A stretch of 56,283 nucleotides of DNA from a virus: UHGV virus genome UHGV-0315882; one strand, given 5' to 3'. This document shows, in pieces, positions 8,133 through 20,976 of this stretch. Each line of letters starts with the position of its first letter. Within the stretch, counting starts at the first letter, position 1. The position numbers and the translations under genes are program-made. The notes beneath the pieces were generated by a model. It ran no database searches. It saw nothing but the letters and a program-made list of their open reading frames with translations, and was not told the origin of the DNA.

Positions 8133-8162
8133 ATAAAAAAGGCCGCCGAAGCAGCCTTTTAA
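8133..8162 (-). terminator. Intrinsic terminator
   Basis: Imperfect GC stem (GGCCGC/GCAGCC) flanked by A6 and T4 runs. Confidence 0.5.
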
Positions 8163-8173
8163 GAAATTACTTA

Positions 8174-9283
8174 TTAGATTTCACGTTTACGTTGGGAGAT
8201 AAGTTCTCCAGCAGTACCGACGATGACATGTAGAGCTTCAGTCTTACCATCCCATGCTTTCAGTACTTTACGTTGATTATCAACGATTGCTGCAACTTCA
8301 TAACGAGACGAGCGCATCTTCATATCGTTGTAATCAGTTGGTACGGATACAACGTCTCGTGGATGGACACGAACCTTCAGAATTGTATCACCTGAGAAGT
8401 AACGAACATAATCCCAAGCACCAACGTGAAGACCTTGAGAGCAAGTCACGTTACGGTTATTATCAACCATCCAACGTGGCATTTCTACAATGTTACCCAA
8501 ATCATTAGGTACTTTGCAGGTGCGGGAGTCAACCAGCTTGCCTTCACGAGTAGAGACTTTCTTCCAACCAATGATGTAGCCTTCTTCATCAATTTCAACA
8601 TCAAGGTGAGATATGAATCCCCAAAGTTGTTCTACAGAATCTTTAGATGGGTTTTCCATCAGTTTTTCGAAGAACATTACAAGTCGTTCAAAACCTTTAT
8701 CACCAGTCTTCATCATGTGAAGGATACGGTCAACCAGAGTAGAACGCATCTCAACAGCACCGTAGAATAGCTTATCACCTTTGATTGTGATAGCTCCCTG
8801 CGTGAAGTTTTCGATAGACTTACGAATGTTCATCAGTTCAAAGGCTTTCTTGAACTCACCTTTCACAACATGAACTACAATCTCTTGATAGTTCGGATGA
8901 GTAGACTCAACAATTTCAGATTCTGAACCGTAAGTCATAATTACAGAGTCACCAGTAATCATGTACTCAATCTTGTCATCTTTCTGCATAGCTTCGTGCA
9001 GTTTATTTACTGGAGCTTTCTGTACAGCGTCTTTAACTACCTTTTCAACTGGTTTTCCAGCTTTCTTCTTAAAGGTCTTAGCAACTTGCTTCAAAGTCTT
9101 CGTAGCTGGTGTAGAAGTCACCTTCTTATTCCCTTTTAAGGTTGCTTCATGACGCTCTACAGCACGACCGACTGAACGGGTTGAAGTATTAAATTTCTGT
9201 GCAATAGCTGTTTTAGTCAGCTTACCTTCTTTAACCAGTTTGTAAATTTCTGCGTCAATCTGTGCTTTAGTTTTAGTAGTCAT
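8174..9283 (-). CDS. rIIB: rIIB-like protein (369 aa)
   Basis: Immediately downstream of the rIIA-like gene (conserved rIIA-rIIB order); positional assignment only. Confidence 0.4.
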   Translation of the reverse strand: MTTKTKAQIDAEIYKLVKEGKLTKTAIAQKFNTSTRSVGRAVERHEATLKGNKKVTSTPATKTLKQVAKTFKKKAGKPVEKVVKDAVQKAPVNKLHEAMQKDDKIEYMITGDSVIMTYGSESEIVESTHPNYQEIVVHVVKGEFKKAFELMNIRKSIENFTQGAITIKGDKLFYGAVEMRSTLVDRILHMMKTGDKGFERLVMFFEKLMENPSKDSVEQLWGFISHLDVEIDEEGYIIGWKKVSTREGKLVDSRTCKVPNDLGNIVEMPRWMVDNNRNVTCSQGLHVGAWDYVRYFSGDTILKVRVHPRDVVSVPTDYNDMKMRSSRYEVAAIVDNQRKVLKAWDGKTEALHVIVGTAGELISQRKREI

Positions 9284-9362: not shown

Positions 9363-11729
9363 TTAATCGTAAATTGTAGTCCCTTCTGGAACACATTTTA
9401 CATCAAAACCTAAGAACTTACTCACTTCGATGGGTGACACTTTATTCCAATCTAAATGAGAAAGCAAGAAGTTTTCTTGTTTTCTTTTTGAAAGGTAGTT
9501 TGTCACCTTAATGACCATGCGGTCACCAGCTTTCTTAATTTTCTTGTAAAGCTTTGTATCATTGTCAAGGCATTCTTTCAAAGTTTGCAATCTACTAACA
9601 GTGTAAGTGTATGCAAACGGTGCAGCAACGTATTGGATTTTACCGAACATTGCCTCTACAGCCTCTTCATTACCTTCTAGGAAGATAGTTTTGTTTGTAT
9701 CCCGTGAATAGCAATAACCACGAGAAATCTTCCTATTATTGAATGTAAAGTTTCTGGCAATAATCCAGCTACTTGTAAGGTCAAGAACACCATTCATGTA
9801 GATGCGTGTCATATACCTGTTATGATTAATCCAATGAACATCAGTTAAGCTGTCGTTCAAGAGCTTCTCATCTACTTCAATCCAGTCTTCTGGTATCTTT
9901 TTCCAATTTGCTTTTCGGAAAACATAAACTGTCTTTCCAATAACATTAGCAACTGACTTAGCTACATCTTCTGGAGATGAGCAAAAACATCTACCATCAA
10001 CTGTGTCACCAACTGCCTTAATATAAAGCTGAGGTTCTTCAATTGTGTCTAAGTCTTCTGACACCTCTTTGTATGAAGCTACAGATTCTGCTGGAACAGC
10101 TTTCCATAGTTTTACAACACCTCTCACAGCCTCTTTACGCTGATAATGATGCTCCTTATCAGACATTTTCACAATCTTTAACAAGCTTTTATCAAGTTTG
10201 TGTAGATTGATTAAATCATCTAACTCTTTTTCAGTCGAGAATACAAACACAATACCATTGTATCTGTGGAACAGGCCTGACTCGTTAGCGTAGTCTCGAC
10301 ATGCACCACGCAAGATTTGATTTCGTCCTACAGTCTTCTCAGTGCCATTTTTATTGCGACGGTCATTAATCACGAACAAAAACTGTTCAATTTGGCTTTT
10401 ACGCATTGCACCAAAGATATTGAACATACTTGCCTCTTGAGTGTAGGAAAGTGCTGTTGCACGAATCTCACTCTCTAAAGAGTTGAACTTGACATAAGCA
10501 ACTGGGTCATAAAGGTAATCTACTTTAGGGATGTTGTTTCCGTTCCTATCAACCTTAATATTACCTTTACCGTCACGCTCATAAATGACTGAGCCGTCTT
10601 CTGCGTAGATAATCCCGCGACGAATGTTTAGCAACTCTTCTTCCAGAGAATCAAGCTTAACGCCTCCCCACTCTAGCTTTGGACACACAGCATTAAACAT
10701 TTCTCGTGAGTTCAAACGCAACTCAGCATAAGCCTGTGCAGCATCCATGAGTGTGGGCTGATTGTTAATCTTTTTGATAACATCCTTTGTAATGGCTTCA
10801 GTTATCTTTTTAGTAGCCTCAATGATAACATTTTTTGTCGTGTCATTCATCTGCAATGCTTCACGAGAAGCTGCAATAGCAACTGAACCAATAGGCATGT
10901 AGATGTTTACAAGGTCTACGCTCCTACGGAAAAACTCTGGCAATACTTTGAAGAAATCATCGCCAAGTAATGCTTCCATATTAACAGGGTAGGCAATGTT
11001 ACCCATCACCACATTAAACTCTGTCCTGTTATCACTAGAACGCCAGCTGTGCTTATGAATCATGGCATCATAAACACCTTCTTCACGGGCAATGACGTTC
11101 ATATCTGCTAATACATCGTTGTACTCAATATTACTTTCTGGTTTTACAGTGAAGTATGAGTACACATTCCCAGCTTCTTCAAAGAACTTTGAGATACGGT
11201 GGTCAGCAACTGCCACACGTACAGCTAAACCATTAGGTTCTTTTGTTGGGTTAGTTGTCAGCTTAGTTACTTGAGGGATACCATTCTCAAGATAAACAGA
11301 GTACTTATTAACAACACCGTCAACATAACTAGATACTGTGAATGACTGAGCAATTGCAAATGGTGACTTTGAGCCGATACCCATTGCACCAATGTAGTCA
11401 TTAGAGTCGTTCTTCGTAGAAGCTCCATAGTTTAGGTACAGACTCATAACTTTATCATGAGTCAATCCAGTTCCAAAATCACGAACTTCGAAGTAAGGCT
11501 CAAAACGAGTAGGTAAATGCACATGGAATGGGATGTTCTCTTTTCCAGCTTCTTTCTGAGCATCCACTGCGTTACATGACAGTTCACGAATCACTGCCCT
11601 TTCTTTAAAGGTGTATACACCAGAACTCAAAAGGCTGAACATCTCAGGTGTCATTGTAATCTGTGCTTGAGACGTCTCTAAAGAAGTTGAACTCTTAATC
11701 ACTTCTGCGTGGTCATTTACCATGCGCAT
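9363..11729 (-). CDS. rIIA: rIIA-like protein with GHKL/HATPase-type ATPase domain (788 aa)
   Basis: N-terminal motifs ELSCNAVDA, RDFGTGL, GAMGIGSKS resemble the GHKL ATPase fold of rIIA. Confidence 0.6.
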   Translation of the reverse strand: MRMVNDHAEVIKSSTSLETSQAQITMTPEMFSLLSSGVYTFKERAVIRELSCNAVDAQKEAGKENIPFHVHLPTRFEPYFEVRDFGTGLTHDKVMSLYLNYGASTKNDSNDYIGAMGIGSKSPFAIAQSFTVSSYVDGVVNKYSVYLENGIPQVTKLTTNPTKEPNGLAVRVAVADHRISKFFEEAGNVYSYFTVKPESNIEYNDVLADMNVIAREEGVYDAMIHKHSWRSSDNRTEFNVVMGNIAYPVNMEALLGDDFFKVLPEFFRRSVDLVNIYMPIGSVAIAASREALQMNDTTKNVIIEATKKITEAITKDVIKKINNQPTLMDAAQAYAELRLNSREMFNAVCPKLEWGGVKLDSLEEELLNIRRGIIYAEDGSVIYERDGKGNIKVDRNGNNIPKVDYLYDPVAYVKFNSLESEIRATALSYTQEASMFNIFGAMRKSQIEQFLFVINDRRNKNGTEKTVGRNQILRGACRDYANESGLFHRYNGIVFVFSTEKELDDLINLHKLDKSLLKIVKMSDKEHHYQRKEAVRGVVKLWKAVPAESVASYKEVSEDLDTIEEPQLYIKAVGDTVDGRCFCSSPEDVAKSVANVIGKTVYVFRKANWKKIPEDWIEVDEKLLNDSLTDVHWINHNRYMTRIYMNGVLDLTSSWIIARNFTFNNRKISRGYCYSRDTNKTIFLEGNEEAVEAMFGKIQYVAAPFAYTYTVSRLQTLKECLDNDTKLYKKIKKAGDRMVIKVTNYLSKRKQENFLLSHLDWNKVSPIEVSKFLGFDVKCVPEGTTIYD

Positions 11730-11758
11730 AATACTTTCCTCTTAGTTTACTGTTAAAT

Positions 11759-11935
11759 CACTTATTAAACATTTTACCAGAACCGCCACACATAGGGCAA
11801 CAACCTGCTCTTGTATAACCTTCCCCATTACAGAAGTCACATTTTTTGTGTTCTGCATAGTACTTGCAAAGAAGGTAAACGAACACTGCTACACTACCAA
11901 GTGACAGTAAAATTTCTATCCAATATGCTTGCATG
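11759..11935 (-). CDS. small membrane-anchored zinc-finger protein (58 aa, below the ORF-track threshold)
   Basis: Hand translation MQAYWIEILLSLGSVAVFVYLLCKYYAEHKKCDFCNGEGYTRAGCCPMCGGSGKMFNK: hydrophobic helix plus two CxxCxGxG repeats; GAGAGG RBS. Confidence 0.4.
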
Positions 11936-12251
11936 ACTCACCTCTCATATTTTTGTAAAGGATAAAGCTTCTGTCATGAACGATACTTGTAGATACTGCA
12001 AAGTTACTTTCAAGCATCTGTTTGTTTGGATTGTAGAAGCTTTCTTTAAACTCGTCAAGTGCAAACTGGTGATGTTGTGGAAGACCTTTTACACAAACCT
12101 TTATTGTGATTGCTGCTGCAACCTTTCCAGTCAGTTCTTCTTTAGCTGCTACTAAAATTTTGTTGAGGAACTTATGGCCATCTTCAGGCTTCTTGATGTT
12201 CTCCCAACGTTCTTCTAAGATAATGTTGATGTTCATTTCTTTGATTTTCAT
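11916..12251 (-). CDS. hypothetical protein (111 aa)
   Basis: ORF downstream of terminator 12269-12291. Confidence 0.5.
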   Translation of the reverse strand: MKIKEMNINIILEERWENIKKPEDGHKFLNKILVAAKEELTGKVAAAITIKVCVKGLPQHHQFALDEFKESFYNPNKQMLESNFAVSTSIVHDRSFILYKNMRGESCKHIG

Positions 12252-12268: not shown

Positions 12269-12291
12269 AAAAAGGCTCCCGTAGGAGCCTC
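12269..12291 (-). terminator. Intrinsic terminator
   Basis: GGCTCC-cgta-GGAGCC followed by a T-run on the minus strand. Confidence 0.6.
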
Positions 12292-12304
12292 TTATCATAT
12301 ACTT

Positions 12305-14086
12305 TTAAAGCTGCTTGTCAATATTATTTCGAATATCGCCAAGAGTTGTGTAGCCAAACTGCTCAGAGTCGCTAAAGACTAAACGTAAAGCACAAGCTGG
12401 ATGTTCAAGTGCATCTGCAAAGCTCTGGAATCCATAGCCATCTACAGCTTTCAATTTATCACCATCCCACATAGGCGCTACACCACCAAAGGCAGACTTC
12501 TTCACACCACTATCTGTTTTAGGGTCTTTTGCAAGCATAATCTCCTTACCACCAATGCTTGCAAGAGTTGCTTTGACAGCAAATGCAAAGGTGTCACGAG
12601 TCATGTACTGGTAAGTGTAAGAGCCTACACCAAACACTACGTTAGAGCTTGCAAAACCCATTTCATACAAACGCTTCAATATTTCGTTTGCACGTTCCAA
12701 CGTGATAGAGTCACCATAAATAAGTCCGATGTGCTCATCCAGTACTTTAAAACCTTTGGAGTTGATAGTCCCTCCGAAGATGTTATACAGGGTCTTAATA
12801 GCTCCATCAATCTCTGCTACAGGACGTGTTACAACGTTTGCAGAACCAACCATATAAGCATTCTTCAGCAGTACTGTATCAGCAACTTCAAAGTCTTCTC
12901 GGTCAACAACCATTTCGTAGCCTTCTGACAGTAGCCATCCAGCAATACCATAGTTGATGTTTTCAAGCTTCATGTTCAGAACAGATTTCAGCATTGTATC
13001 ACTAGCTTCCAGCTTGCTAAGATGTTCATAATAAGCCTTCTTAGCACATTCTAAGTGGATTGCTTTATAACCTGTGACAATATGCACAGGGTCTCCAGAG
13101 TCAGGACGAATTACCAGCTTGCCGTCACGTTCCATAATCTCTTTACGGAGTTCTGGCAGTATCACTGATACAGTTCTCCAGAAGTTATAAGTATCTGAAA
13201 CAATACTTGCAATACCCGTTGGGTAAGTTTCTGTTAAGAAACGACGGAAGGTTTGTAACTCACCTTTAAAGCGTCTTTCTTCTTCAATCAATTCGTTACC
13301 ACCTTCCCAAGCAATGTTTGCACACATTACAGAGTGCTCAGTGGCTGGTACAGAGCTACCAATATCAGAGACTGGGTAAGACTGTCCGTAGATGCGTTTA
13401 GCTGTATATACGGCAGGGAAGCTATCAGTTCCTTTAAAGCTGGTCAAGTGGCCTACAGCATTAAATGCGTCATCAGTAAAGCCGGACATACCACGCATAG
13501 CAAAGTCATGGCACTGATAAGGCAAATGCAAGTCGTTATCACAAGTAAGGTCAGCCCACTTCTTACAGATACGTTTGTAGTGCAATGCAATAGTTGCAAT
13601 GGTACAAGCCTTCCAAATCTCAGCAGAGAAAGCATCTTCCAGATAACCTGCTACCCAATGGAAACCTGAAACAGTGTTCTGGAAAACAATCATTGGGACA
13701 CGCATAGGGACAACTGTGCCTTCTTCTACAGCGTATACTTCAACTGGTAGATAACCTAAGTCGTGAAGTGCTTCCCAATGCTCTCGACCGATAGCATCTT
13801 TACCAAGAACACCATTCATGACTTCTAAGATTTCGTCAATTGCTTCTTTTTTATCACGTTCAAAGAAAGTGGCATTCCAGTGGTCTATCAAGTAATCTTT
13901 AACAAAACGTTGAATACCAAAAGCCACTACACCGTCAATTGCTAAAGGGCTGTTAAACCATTTATCACTACGTGGTGTCAGGTTGAACATCAAGTACTCT
14001 GTTGCGCTAGGATACTGGTAAACATGACCAGATTTGTAAGCATCTGCATTTAAACCTGCTGGTACTGCATAAAGTGATTTAGTCAT
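12305..14086 (-). CDS. NAMPT-family phosphoribosyltransferase (593 aa); nicotinamide phosphoribosyltransferase or Namat-like ADPR transferase
   Basis: N-terminal DAYKSGHVYQYP matches the NAMPT/NAPRT signature; length and collinearity fit the family. Confidence 0.8.
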   Translation of the reverse strand: MTKSLYAVPAGLNADAYKSGHVYQYPSATEYLMFNLTPRSDKWFNSPLAIDGVVAFGIQRFVKDYLIDHWNATFFERDKKEAIDEILEVMNGVLGKDAIGREHWEALHDLGYLPVEVYAVEEGTVVPMRVPMIVFQNTVSGFHWVAGYLEDAFSAEIWKACTIATIALHYKRICKKWADLTCDNDLHLPYQCHDFAMRGMSGFTDDAFNAVGHLTSFKGTDSFPAVYTAKRIYGQSYPVSDIGSSVPATEHSVMCANIAWEGGNELIEEERRFKGELQTFRRFLTETYPTGIASIVSDTYNFWRTVSVILPELRKEIMERDGKLVIRPDSGDPVHIVTGYKAIHLECAKKAYYEHLSKLEASDTMLKSVLNMKLENINYGIAGWLLSEGYEMVVDREDFEVADTVLLKNAYMVGSANVVTRPVAEIDGAIKTLYNIFGGTINSKGFKVLDEHIGLIYGDSITLERANEILKRLYEMGFASSNVVFGVGSYTYQYMTRDTFAFAVKATLASIGGKEIMLAKDPKTDSGVKKSAFGGVAPMWDGDKLKAVDGYGFQSFADALEHPACALRLVFSDSEQFGYTTLGDIRNNIDKQL

Positions 14087-14104
14087 CTTTTAATCTCTCT
14101 TAAA

Positions 14105-14124
14105 ATGGGGCTTGGAAGCCCCTA
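14105..14124 (-). terminator. GC hairpin with U-run between the Prs-like and NAMPT-like genes
   Basis: GGGGCTT-gg-AAGCCCC followed on the minus strand by ATTTTAAG; preceded by TTTATA. Confidence 0.45.
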
Positions 14125-14131
14125 TAAAGTT

Positions 14132-15028
14132 TTAATCAAGGTTTGCTACAGTAACTTGGCTATAATGTGTTAAGCCACGGTCTTTAGCTTCCCCTAAAGA
14201 GTTTGTAGTGTAGATATGGTCAATACCATTGTCAAGAAGGTTTTCAACATCTTTAGAGAAGATACCATGTGTTACATAGAGTTCCACTCGTTTTGCACCT
14301 GCTTCACGAAGATGTTTAGCTGCTTCTATGAAGGTTCGTCCTCCATCACAAATATCATCCAGAATCATGACGGTTTTATCTGTCAAATCAACATCGTCAA
14401 GGATTCGCATACCAGTGATTTCACCAGTCTTGAGGTTGCGTACTTTAGACATTGTGATATATGGTTTATCCACCTCTTTAGCGGTTTCTGCAACCTTCTT
14501 AGCAGCACCTGCATCTGGGGCCACTAAGTAATCAACCAGTGGGTCATTTGCATAGTGGACTGCAATCTCCTTTTGAGGAATACTCTGGAAGCAGTTAAAC
14601 AGGTTATCTGGAACGTAACTGTGAGGGTCAACTGCACAGACTGCACCAAACCCCATTGCATTAACCTGTTTAGCAAAAACCTTCAAAGCTGCTGCATCGC
14701 CTTTAAACATGTGACGGTCATATCGTGCATTTGGTAAGTAGTAAAAGATGACAGTCTTTAAAGCATAATCATGAGGAATTAAATCATCAATTGCTTCTTT
14801 AGCAAGTGCTACAGCAAACAATGTGTCTTTATCATAACCTTTTACAATCATAATCACATTGTTGATGGATGATGCAGCATAAGCAGTAAAATCAACAAAC
14901 TCTGGTGAAAAGTGTCCACCAATCTCACCAGAAGGAAATTGGATGATGTTAAACTCTTCTTCATGAGTTCCTTTAGTTGGTGAATGAACTGTAACACGTA
15001 TAGATGTTTTCATAATTTTCTCTCTCAA
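14132..15028 (-). CDS. Ribose-phosphate pyrophosphokinase (Prs) family protein (298 aa); PRPP synthetase or ADPR-PP synthetase (Adps)-like
   Basis: Type I PRTase/PRPP-binding motif VMILDDICDGGRTF; size fits Prs. Confidence 0.8.
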   Translation of the reverse strand: MREKIMKTSIRVTVHSPTKGTHEEEFNIIQFPSGEIGGHFSPEFVDFTAYAASSINNVIMIVKGYDKDTLFAVALAKEAIDDLIPHDYALKTVIFYYLPNARYDRHMFKGDAAALKVFAKQVNAMGFGAVCAVDPHSYVPDNLFNCFQSIPQKEIAVHYANDPLVDYLVAPDAGAAKKVAETAKEVDKPYITMSKVRNLKTGEITGMRILDDVDLTDKTVMILDDICDGGRTFIEAAKHLREAGAKRVELYVTHGIFSKDVENLLDNGIDHIYTTNSLGEAKDRGLTHYSQVTVANLD

Positions 15029-20534: not shown

Positions 20535-20741
20535 TTAAATCTTTTTAGAAAACTTCGAAACGAGTTTTCTTAGTTTTTCAGTGATGCCTAACTGTATCTC
20601 TAATATTTCAAAGATAACCCATAGTAACATGGCCCCAAACAATGAACCTTGTTCAAAATCAGTAAATAGGTTAACAATCAGCATACCAATCACAATGGCT
20701 GGTGCATCAACAACCAGACCTTCCCAAAGGCGTTTAAGCAT
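20535..20741 (-). CDS. small membrane protein (68 aa)
   Basis: Two hydrophobic helices; possible holin-like protein (speculative). Confidence 0.4.
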   Translation of the reverse strand: MLKRLWEGLVVDAPAIVIGMLIVNLFTDFEQGSLFGAMLLWVIFEILEIQLGITEKLRKLVSKFSKKI

Positions 20742-20976
20742 TATTCACCTCTGCCATAAAATTCTGTAGCGTTCCAACAGGTTTTAGGTTTTGTCCATCA
20801 GTTTTCATGATGAATGGCATCTGACGAACTGGCATCTGTGCAATATCCATCAGGTCTGACAGTTCATAATCCTGCCCTAACATTCTCACAACATGGTCAA
20901 TACCACGAGCTTTTGCAAAATTCTTTGCAGTCTCACACTGAGGGCATCCAGTTTTGGAGTAAATCACATAAGTCAT
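20734..20976 (-). CDS. Glutaredoxin/NrdH-like redoxin (80 aa)
   Basis: YSKTGCPQC active-site motif; adjacent to nrdB. Confidence 0.7.
   Translation of the reverse strand: MTYVIYSKTGCPQCETAKNFAKARGIDHVVRMLGQDYELSDLMDIAQMPVRQMPFIMKTDGQNLKPVGTLQNFMAEVNNA

What the first reader, a model, noticed from the sequence alone, without database searches (positions are those of the whole stretch)
11759..11935. Unannotated 58 aa ORF: membrane helix plus tandem CxxCxGxG zinc finger
Between rIIA and the preceding ORF, a minus-strand ORF below the 60 aa track cutoff encodes a hydrophobic N-terminal helix followed by two DnaJ-type CxxCxGxG repeats (CDFCNGEG, CPMCGGSG), with a GAGAGG RBS. A membrane-tethered zinc finger is an unusual small-protein architecture, and its position next to rIIA/rIIB (membrane-associated exclusion and lysis-timing functions) is suggestive.
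Basis: seen in the sequence. Interest (0 to 1): 0.5.

Follow-up and report, generated by a model that had tools for sequence, protein, structure and literature searches.

The report
Known small membrane zinc-finger phage gene
This is a real, well-conserved 58-residue gene of Felix O1-like phages, a membrane helix followed by a one-zinc DnaJ/Anti-TRAP-type finger, that sits just upstream of rIIA; public records already annotate it, a knock-down in a related phage showed no fitness cost, and its function is still unknown.

Summary
It has a strong Shine-Dalgarno site, an N-terminal hydrophobic helix and two CxxCxGxG motifs. These are the only two intact motifs of that kind in any frame of the 56-kb window.

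It is a real gene. pN/pS is 0.09 among 20 Felixounavirus alleles. The four ligand cysteines and four motif glycines are invariant across the 12 aligned homologues (Felixouna-, Moogle-, Suspvirus and RB49-like phages), and both motifs are also present in the Kolesnikvirus copy.

It is not unannotated. It is Felix O1 ORF131 ("hypothetical membrane protein"), PHROG 3931, and phage Mushroom gp002 ("DnaJ-like, contains cysteine-rich domain").

The finger matches the DnaJ cysteine-rich domain (E 3e-10). In size and spacing it matches Anti-TRAP, which binds one zinc with two motifs.

Predicted topology is N-out/C-in. The gene lies in a four-gene unit: ORF130, ORF131, rIIA, rIIB.

CRISPRi-ART knock-down of the SUSP1 orthologue was scored "Not Fit".

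Best reading: a non-essential, membrane-tethered protein-binding zinc module made before the late phase. A functional link to rII is suggested only by conserved position. Novelty is low.

The parts
11758..11934 (-). Coding sequence of the 58-aa protein, stop codon included. Orthologue of Felix O1 ORF131 / Felix01p243 and member of PHROG 3931.
   Evidence: purifying selection shown
11938..11946 (-). Shine-Dalgarno sequence GAGAGGTGA, lying inside the 3' end of the upstream ORF. A purine-rich SD occupies the same place in every lineage.
11916..11934 (-). 19-nt overlap between the stop region of ORF130 and the start of the 58-aa ORF. This is a layout that allows translational coupling. The same overlap is seen in Felixouna-, Moogle- and Suspvirus.
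11866..11922 (-). Residues 5-23, the hydrophobic core of the predicted transmembrane helix (AF2 helix spans residues 3-28). E7 and S11 are invariant.
11818..11841 (-). First CxxCxGxG motif, CDFCNGEG (C32, C35, G37 and G39 invariant).
11776..11799 (-). Second CxxCxGxG motif, CPMCGGSG (C46, C49, G51 and G53 invariant). It is preceded by the nearly invariant extra Cys45.
11916..12251 (-). ORF130 homologue (111 aa, PHROG 4262, unknown function), the first gene of the unit. The AF2 model is beta-alpha-beta-alpha-beta-beta, with no informative fold match.
12270..12321 (-). Sigma-70-like promoter match (TTGACA-16-TATGAT, 12321-12294) directly followed by a terminator-like hairpin (12293-12270) after nadV. 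Both are conserved in three genera. This marks the likely start of the unit.
   Evidence: Meda annotates a terminator here
9363..11729 (-). rIIA (788 aa), immediately downstream. No terminator-like site lies between it and the 58-aa ORF.
8137..9283 (-). rIIB (8174-9283) and the terminator-like hairpin (8160-8137) that closes the unit.

Best explanation
The ORF is a genuine, non-essential accessory gene of Ounavirinae phages. It is translated from a strong SD site that overlaps the end of ORF130. It is transcribed with ORF130, rIIA and rIIB before the late phase.

The product is a bitopic inner-membrane protein. It has a 4-residue periplasmic N-terminus and one transmembrane helix with a conserved ExxxS face. 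Its roughly 30-residue cytoplasmic tail uses C32/C35/C46/C49, from two CxxCxGxG motifs separated by 6 residues, to bind one zinc. This is the arrangement seen in Anti-TRAP, and it resembles half of the DnaJ cysteine-rich domain.

A tail this small cannot be an enzyme of the usual kind. The most likely role is a membrane-tethered protein-binding knob that holds or blocks a partner at the inner membrane. The partner could be a host protein or RIIA/RIIB. The benefit would appear only in particular hosts or conditions.

Shown: the gene is real, the zinc-finger class, the conserved position, and dispensability in one laboratory host.
Inferred: zinc binding, topology, co-transcription, protein-binding role.
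Guessed: the identity of the partner.
For: Coding status: pN/pS is 0.09 and variable sites by codon position are 7/5/30. The ORF is intact in 29/29 IMG/VR copies. It is present in 262 phage records.

Conserved residues: M1, E7, S11, C32, C35, G37, G39, C46, C49, G51 and G53 are invariant in 12 sequences that are as little as 40% identical to the window protein.

Zinc-finger class: the profile matches the E. coli DnaJ cysteine-rich domain 1EXK at E 3e-10, DNAJA3 at 1.7e-6 and Anti-TRAP 3LCZ at 0.002, the last in a gapless alignment with the same 6-residue spacer. The AF2 model (pLDDT 71) shows a helix at residues 3-28 plus a knuckle. Its best PDB fold hits are Anti-TRAP, with rmsd 1.0 A over 23 residues and probability 0.9. 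In Anti-TRAP two CXXCXGXG motifs bind one zinc, and the zinc is needed for function.

Topology: in 18/18 homologues hydropathy is at least 1.97, there are no K/R residues N-terminal of the helix, and there are 1-6 K/R residues C-terminal of it.

Transcription unit: terminator-like hairpins occur only before ORF130 and after rIIB. A sigma-70-like promoter match is conserved at the start. In Felix O1 RT-PCR, the flanking ORF130 and ORF1 (rIIA) both peak at 25 min.

Position: the gene lies directly upstream of rIIA in Felixouna-, Moogle-, Susp- and Kolesnikvirus.

Dispensability: the SUSP1 orthologue agp080 is scored 'Not Fit' in the genome-wide CRISPRi-ART screen, PMC11879866.

Precedent: Arabidopsis FIP has a membrane anchor plus two CXXCXGXG motifs on the stromal side and binds FtsH5, PMC5915565.
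Against: There is no direct evidence for translation, zinc binding, membrane insertion or any partner.

The Moogle- and Suspvirus copies have net acidic sequence just after the helix, so in them the positive-inside argument rests on a single Lys/Arg.

Bacterial relatives with lipoprotein-type signal sequences show that the CxxCxGxG module can also work outside the cytoplasm.

The RB49-like homologues are not next to rII. They overlap a glutaredoxin gene, which hints at thiol chemistry instead.

The SUSP1 copy carries G39D in the first motif, so the knock-down result may come from a weakened allele. CRISPRi-ART also has false negatives.

The Foldseek E-values for Anti-TRAP are not significant on their own (0.4-0.7).
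Confidence: 0.5

Rival explanations
1. Redox-active module. The CxxC pairs, with the extra conserved Cys45, would act in thiol-disulfide exchange at the membrane rather than as a static zinc site. My recollection is that the plant membrane DnaJ-like zinc-finger proteins LQY1 and CYO1 have protein-disulfide-isomerase activity; I did not check this here.
For: In four independent RB49-like contexts the gene overlaps the 3' end of a glutaredoxin gene with a C-x-G-C active site. Pfam PF00462 scores above threshold in 3 of 4. Cys45 (the 'CC' doublet) is conserved in 11 of 12 sequences although it is not needed as a fourth ligand.
Against: In Ounavirinae the upstream partner is not a thioredoxin-fold protein and has no CxxC. 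Cys45 is replaced by Pro in P0011, P0056 and P0116. The full CxxCxGxG pattern and its spacing match the structural zinc sites of DnaJ and Anti-TRAP. Gene adjacency in T4-like early regions is weak evidence.
Confidence: 0.15
2. Third component or regulator of the rII module. The membrane-anchored finger would recruit or stabilise RIIA/RIIB at the inner membrane, contributing to escape from Rex-type abortive infection or to lysis timing.
For: The position directly upstream of rIIA is kept in all four Ounavirinae genera, although sequence identity falls so far that the phiEa21-4 copy was not among the tblastn matches and was recognised only by profile comparison. No terminator separates it from rIIA. 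SUSP1 RIIA/RIIB do counter lambda RexAB. agp080 has the second-highest score among its neighbours after rIIA (1.05 against 1.83), though it is classed Not Fit.
Against: T4 and most phages that carry rII lack it; T4 rIIA.1 is unrelated. The RB49-like phages keep the homologue away from rII. The mild positive score of agp080 could be a polar effect on rIIA. No interaction data exist.
Confidence: 0.15
3. Periplasm-facing or lysis protein. The N-terminal segment would act as a signal anchor and export the Cys-rich tail, which would be disulfide-bonded. The protein would then serve as a holin, antiholin or superinfection-exclusion factor. Whichard et al. 2010 listed gp131 among five holin candidates.
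For: It is a small single-TMD protein with a charged C-terminus. PMC3185647 names gp131 as a possible holin. The CRISPRi-ART authors still call Ounavirinae lysis 'a mystery'. Bacterial relatives of the module carry lipoprotein or secretory signals.
Against: No homologue has a positively charged N-region; all K/R residues lie C-terminal of the helix. The flanking genes peak at 25 min together with nucleotide-metabolism genes, not at the late stage. Phage Mushroom's annotators assign the class III holin to a different, 185-aa gene, with spanins and endolysin elsewhere. RB49-like phages carry the homologue; from my own knowledge T4-like phages have their own t/rI lysis genes, which I did not check in these records. 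Knock-down is Not Fit, although that screen also missed known lysis genes.
Confidence: 0.08
4. Chance ORF or non-coding sequence.
For: It is short (58 codons) and lies in an AT-rich genome. A few database copies are frameshifted (P0003, P0005-P0007, NJ12, phiWec174).
Against: pN/pS is 0.09, with third-position bias found only in this frame. The motif residues are invariant in aligned sequences as little as 40% identical to the window protein. The SD is conserved. Frameshifts occur at different positions and in about 2 of 60 sampled records.
Confidence: 0.01

Closest known systems
Felix O1 ORF131 (Felix01p243, NP_945023.1) = PHROG 3931; Mushroom gp002; SUSP1 agp080
   Same: This is the same gene. 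Felixounavirus proteins are 90-100% identical. It has the same 19-nt overlap with ORF130 and the same position before rIIA.
   Different: Nothing of substance. These records call it 'hypothetical membrane protein', 'heat shock protein, DnaJ-like, contains cysteine-rich domain' or 'hypothetical'. None has an assigned function.
RB49p046 family of Krischvirus-like phages, and phiEa21-4 gp117
   Same: 52-58 aa with an N-terminal TM helix, two CxxCxGxG motifs and a 6-residue spacer. Identity is 40-45%, or hhalign probability 97%.
   Different: The N-terminus is shorter. In RB49-like phages the gene overlaps a glutaredoxin gene and is not near rII.
Anti-TRAP (RtpA) of Bacillus, PDB 2BX9 / 3LCZ
   Same: A protein of about 53 aa whose only cofactor site is one zinc held by two CXXCXGXG motifs. 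Those motifs have the same spacing as here and align without gaps. It gives the best fold match. It works purely by binding another protein.
   Different: Anti-TRAP is soluble, trimerises through a C-terminal helix and targets TRAP. The phage protein has an N-terminal membrane helix, only 5 residues after the finger, and an unknown target. Sequence similarity is confined to the motifs (E 0.002).
DnaJ cysteine-rich domain (Pfam PF00684; PDB 1EXK)
   Same: The same CxxCxGxG repeat. The profile E-value against 1EXK is 3e-10.
   Different: DnaJ has four motifs that form two interleaved zinc centres between a J/G-F region and substrate-binding domains. Here there are two motifs, no J domain, and the single sequence scores below the Pfam threshold (14.9 against 32.7 bits).
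Arabidopsis FIP (At5g02160), and by recollection LQY1, CYO1 and HCF222
   Same: A membrane anchor followed by a C4 zinc finger made of two CXXCXGXG motifs, facing the stroma (the equivalent of the cytoplasm), with no J domain. FIP binds the membrane protease FtsH5.
   Different: These are eukaryotic, carry a transit peptide and are larger. Homology beyond the motif was not tested. No phage link is known.

Membership tests
PHROG 3931 / Felix O1 ORF131 orthologue group | Full-length match to the family profile | tested here: met
   E 2.4e-33, residues 1-58 against profile positions 1-59 of 59. tblastn identity to Felixounavirus copies is 90-100%.
PHROG 3931 / Felix O1 ORF131 orthologue group | Conserved position: nadV, ORF130, this ORF, rIIA, rIIB | tested here: met
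DnaJ cysteine-rich domain (Pfam PF00684) | Score above the Pfam gathering threshold | tested here: not met
   14.9 bits against a cut-off of 32.7, E 0.032. A 12-sequence profile does reach E 3e-10 against 1EXK.
DnaJ cysteine-rich domain (Pfam PF00684) | Four CxxCxGxG motifs forming two zinc centres | tested here: not met
   Only two motifs are present.
DnaJ / Hsp40 co-chaperone | J domain with an HPD motif | tested here: not met
   There is no J-domain hit. The N-terminal 28 residues are a hydrophobic helix.
Anti-TRAP-type single-zinc finger | Two CXXCXGXG motifs about 6 residues apart in a protein of about 55 aa | tested here: met
   Gapless alignment with 3LCZ residues 10-33; fold rmsd 1.0 A over 23 residues.
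Anti-TRAP-type single-zinc finger | Binds one zinc through four cysteines | not testable with these tools
   Four invariant Cys sit at the ligand positions. Metal content needs a biochemical assay.
Anti-TRAP (RtpA) family proper | C-terminal helix that forms trimers; binds TRAP | tested here: not met
   Only 5 residues follow the finger, and the only helix is N-terminal and hydrophobic. The hosts are enterobacteria; from my own knowledge these have no TRAP, which I did not test.
Membrane-anchored DnaJ-like zinc-finger proteins (FIP type) | TM anchor followed by a C-terminal CxxCxGxG pair on the cytoplasmic/stromal side | tested here: inconclusive
   The anchor and the motif pair are present. 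The N-out/C-in topology is inferred from charge distribution only. The FIP layout comes from PMC5915565.
Membrane-anchored DnaJ-like zinc-finger proteins (FIP type) | Sequence homology beyond the motif; FtsH binding | not tested
Holins (class III, T4 T-like) | N-in/C-out single TMD with a sizeable periplasmic domain | tested here: not met
   No K/R residues lie N-terminal of the helix in 18/18 homologues, and the tail is about 35 aa. Mushroom's class III holin is a different, 185-aa gene.
Holins (class III, T4 T-like) | Late expression and requirement for plaque formation | tested here: inconclusive
   The flanking ORFs peak at 25 min, not 60 min. SUSP1 knock-down is Not Fit, but that screen also missed lysis genes.

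The most novel reading that the evidence does not exclude
The membrane-tethered zinc knuckle is a working partner of the rII module, or of the still unresolved Ounavirinae lysis control. It would anchor or gate RIIA/RIIB, or a host membrane protein such as FtsH, at the inner membrane. Its loss would then show only on hosts that carry Rex-like abortive-infection systems. That would make it the first characterised member of a widespread class of tiny 'helix + one-zinc finger' phage proteins.
Probability: 0.12. Interest if true: 0.55.

Novelty: already known. Interest (0 to 1): 0.2.

Why it matters
As an observation it adds little. The gene, its membrane segment and its DnaJ-like cysteine-rich domain are already in public annotation, and a genome-wide knock-down screen has already scored the orthologue as dispensable.

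What remains open is the function. Many phages encode 50-80-aa proteins built as one membrane helix plus one CxxCxGxG zinc knuckle, and every one listed is labelled uncharacterised or has no name. This copy has kept its place beside rIIA through four genera. Finding its binding partner would give a first handle on that class and might add a component to the rII/Rex story. That is a modest and specialised gain.

Tried and rejected
1. T4 rIIA.1, which occupies the same position before rIIA in T4. It is 67 aa, has no cysteines and is unrelated.

2. Programmed frameshift at the A6 run (11842-11847). The 63-aa database variants shift at different positions. The +1 frame shows pN/pS of about 2, and about 2 of 60 sampled records are affected. 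They are best explained as sequencing errors or sporadic mutations.

3. Function from the coupled upstream ORF130. There is no Pfam, NCBIfam or PADLOC hit. The AF2 model (pLDDT 77) gives only weak IF3-C-like beta-alpha-beta matches (E 0.08). It is not a thioredoxin fold, and the phiEa21-4 neighbour gp116 is not detectably homologous.

4. Defence or anti-defence libraries. PADLOC gave nothing meaningful.

5. Bacterial homologues of the exact family. One scan of 185,579 species genomes with the CC[PA]xC[GHN]G[ST]GK pattern gave a single 12-residue partial match. This search was limited by the pattern used.

6. Transcriptome papers for Felixounavirus. None was relevant.

7. The afdb50 fold library was unavailable.

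I re-ran it with proteins returned by the search for homologous proteins.

9. The first alignment (A1), which was contaminated by frameshifted entries, could not seed a locus search.

Full report
**Observation.** The minus strand of the window carries an ATG-initiated ORF at 11758..11934, stop codon included. It encodes MQAYWIEILLSLGSVAVFVYLLCKYYAEHKKCDFCNGEGYTRAGCCPMCGGSGKMFNK. GAGAGGTGA ends 3 nt before the ATG, so GAGAGG is 6 nt away from it. The start overlaps the last 19 nt of a 111-aa ORF (11916..12251). rIIA (9363..11729) begins 29 nt after the stop codon. CDFCNGEG and CPMCGGSG are the only two intact C..C.G.G motifs in all six frames of the 56-kb window.

**Where the window comes from.** The region is 95-97% identical to Felix O1-like phages of E. 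coli, Salmonella and Shigella: 254 records matched, mostly Felixounavirus. In those records the ORF is routinely annotated as 'hypothetical protein', 'putative membrane protein' or 'heat shock protein'. In the type genome it is ORF131 / Felix01p243 / NP_945023.1, 'hypothetical membrane protein'. It matches PHROG 3931, of unknown function, over its full length at E 2.4e-33.

**Is it a gene?** tblastn finds it in 262 phage records, and 261 of them cover at least 80% of the query. All 29 IMG/VR Ounavirinae copies are open. Among 20 distinct Felixounavirus alleles the variable sites fall 7/5/30 by codon position. pN/pS is 0.09 in this frame, against 2.0 and 1.0 in the two shifted frames. A 12-sequence alignment reaching down to 40% identity with the window protein keeps M1, E7, S11, C32, C35, G37, G39, C46, C49, G51 and G53 invariant. 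A purine-rich SD 5-9 nt before the ATG, and an overlap with the upstream stop codon, recur in every lineage examined. A few database entries (P0003, P0005-7, NJ12, phiWec174) are frameshifted. The shifts lie at different positions, and the alternative frame shows no sign of selection.

**Distribution and context.**
- The order nadV, ORF130, this ORF, rIIA, rIIB is the same in Felixounavirus, Mooglevirus and Suspvirus.
- In the fourth Ounavirinae genus, Erwinia phage phiEa21-4, tblastn had not reported a homologue. The 54-aa gp117 directly upstream of rIIA reads MDVHTGLNILLVLVIVGGLLAAKYRVDSCCKHCDGTGVKDGCVCPFCQGTGEDD. It aligns to the family profile with hhalign probability 97% (E 8e-11). Its upstream neighbour is not detectably related to ORF130.
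- A shorter version (52-59 aa) occurs in RB49-like T4-type phages. There it overlaps the 3' end of a true glutaredoxin gene (C-x-G-C active site; Pfam above threshold in 3 of 4 copies) and is far from rII.
- T4's own rIIA.1 is unrelated.
- A pattern-limited scan of 185,579 bacterial and archaeal species genomes found no real homologue.

**Transcription.** On the minus strand, terminator-like hairpins lie only after nadV (12293-12270) and after rIIB (8160-8137). A TTGACA-16-TATGAT match (11 of 12) sits just before the first hairpin. Both elements are conserved in three genera. phiEa21-4 has a terminator followed by TTGACA. In the Felix O1 RT-PCR survey, ORFs 126-130 and ORF1 (rIIA) peak at 25 min and ORF2 (rIIB) at 10 min. 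Late genes peak at 60 min. ORF131 itself was not among the 102 ORFs tested (PMC3185647). Co-transcription with its two flanking genes in the pre-late period is therefore inferred, not shown.

**The protein.** AlphaFold2 with the 12-sequence alignment gives mean pLDDT 71, a helix at residues 3-28 and a small beta knuckle. Residues 5-23 have hydropathy 2.11. In all 18 small homologues examined the best 19-residue window scores at least 1.97, no Lys or Arg precedes it, and 1-6 follow it. That pattern predicts N-out/C-in. E7 and S11, one helical turn apart, are invariant.

The family profile hits several solved structures:
- the E. coli DnaJ cysteine-rich domain (1EXK) at E 3e-10;
- human DNAJA3 at 1.7e-6;
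- Bacillus Anti-TRAP at 0.002.

Anti-TRAP's TCPNCNGSGREEPEPCPKCLGKG aligns without gaps. Foldseek against the PDB ranks Anti-TRAP first (rmsd 1.0 A over 23 residues, probability 0.9, E 0.4) and the DnaJ domain lower. In Anti-TRAP the two CXXCXGXG motifs hold one zinc per chain, and zinc is required for function (PMC2896485).

The single sequence fails the Pfam DnaJ_CXXCXGXG threshold (14.9 against 32.7 bits). The protein has two motifs, not four, and no J domain. It is a DnaJ-type finger, not a DnaJ. Cys45 of the 'CC' doublet is replaced by Pro in three homologues, so the ligands are C32, C35, C46 and C49.

**Is the architecture unusual?** No. A profile search of 1.84 billion representative proteins returned 1187 hits at E of 1e-3 or better. 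Most are CxxCxGxG-repeat proteins, including DnaJ, and several of the 26 sequences I retrieved combine an N-terminal hydrophobic or lipoprotein signal segment with 2-12 motifs. BFVD lists many uncharacterised 50-80-aa phage proteins with the same helix-plus-knuckle shape, among them RB49 Q7Y3T0, Pseudomonas ZC03 and Pectobacterium Arno18. CxxCxGxG pairs also occur inside other phage proteins, including phage DnaJ homologues, and a partial DnaJ domain with two motifs is reported in HMO-2011-type phage DNA polymerases. Arabidopsis FIP has a membrane anchor, then two CXXCXGXG motifs facing the stroma, and binds FtsH5 (PMC5915565).

**Functional evidence from the literature.**
- Whichard et al. 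2010 listed gp131 among five possible holins on the basis of size and a TM segment.
- Mushroom's annotators later assigned a class III holin to a different, 185-aa gene, with endolysin and spanins elsewhere.
- In the genome-wide CRISPRi-ART screen of SUSP1, the orthologue agp080 (PHROG 3931, mapped by the authors to Felix01p243) scored 1.05 and was classed 'Not Fit'. rIIA scored 1.83 ('Semi-Fit'), and ORF130 and rIIB were 'Not Fit' (PMC11879866).
- The same paper shows that SUSP1 RIIA/RIIB are needed only on RexAB-expressing hosts. It also notes that no lysis genes were recovered and that Ounavirinae lysis 'remains a mystery'.
- One caveat: the SUSP1 copy has G39D in the first motif.

**Interpretation.** The best-supported account is a non-essential, pre-late, bitopic inner-membrane protein whose short cytoplasmic tail is a one-zinc Anti-TRAP/DnaJ-type knuckle. 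Such modules are known to act by binding other proteins, so I take it to be a membrane-tethered binding knob for a host or phage partner. I give the whole statement 0.5. The structural part is much firmer than the functional part.

The rivals are:
- a thiol-redox role, favoured by the glutaredoxin coupling in RB49-like phages and by the extra Cys (0.15);
- a specific accessory role in the rII module, favoured only by conserved position (0.15);
- a periplasm-facing, holin or exclusion role (0.08);
- no gene at all (0.01).

**Verdict.** It is already known and annotated, its domain has been noticed before, and its architecture is common. The only open question is what it binds. Interest is low to modest.

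Noticed in passing
window 12270-12321 (-): A near-consensus sigma-70 promoter match (TTGACA-16-TATGAT) lies inside the 3' end of nadV. Its -10 element abuts a 10-bp terminator-like hairpin. Both are conserved in Felixouna-, Moogle- and Suspvirus, while phiEa21-4 has the terminator first and then TTGACA. A transcript started here would begin inside the hairpin's 5' arm, so the hairpin may terminate only read-through from nadV.
   Followed up: partly
L006:2736-3153, L053:255-699, L054:4742-5177, L055:125-554: In RB49-like T4-type phages the TM + zinc-finger homologue overlaps, by 8-11 nt, the end of a glutaredoxin gene with a C-(Y/W)-G-C active site. A DUF7570 gene follows it.
   Followed up: partly
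window 20535-20976 (-): The window's own glutaredoxin (80 aa, CPQC, 20734-20976) is overlapped by 8 nt by a 68-aa hydrophobic ORF with no cysteines (20535-20741). This is the same 'glutaredoxin plus overlapping small membrane ORF' layout as in RB49-like phages, but with an unrelated small protein.
   Followed up: no
window 11842-11847 (-) and database proteins P0003, P0005-P0007, P0004: Several public entries carry frameshifted 63-aa or truncated 41-aa versions of the gene. One shift falls in the A6 run, the others elsewhere. The +1 frame stays open to 63 codons but shows no purifying selection.
   Followed up: yes
L056:3001-3180 (SUSP1 agp080): The SUSP1 copy, which is the one tested by CRISPRi-ART, has Asp in place of the otherwise invariant Gly39 of the first CxxCxGxG motif. 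It may therefore be a weakened allele.
   Followed up: no
window 11916-12251 (-): ORF130 (111 aa, PHROG 4262) is 59-67% identical across three genera, with a long invariant stretch (FYNPNK...SIVHDRSF). It has a confident beta-alpha-beta-alpha-beta-beta model but no informative fold or family match.
   Followed up: partly
window 12305-15028 (-): nadV (nicotinamide phosphoribosyltransferase, 593 aa) and a ribose-phosphate pyrophosphokinase (298 aa) lie just upstream. This is the NAD-salvage pair already described for Felix O1. Relatives have an HNH endonuclease inserted between the two genes; this window does not.
   Followed up: no
L040, L042, L047, L048, L041 (IMG/VR contigs): Pairs of CxxCxGxG motifs with similar spacing occur in otherwise unrelated large phage proteins: near the C-terminus in three 670-810-aa proteins (L040, L042, L047) and internally in two of 445-561 aa (L048, L041). 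Their functions were not determined. The one-zinc knuckle looks like a mobile module in phage proteomes.
   Followed up: no
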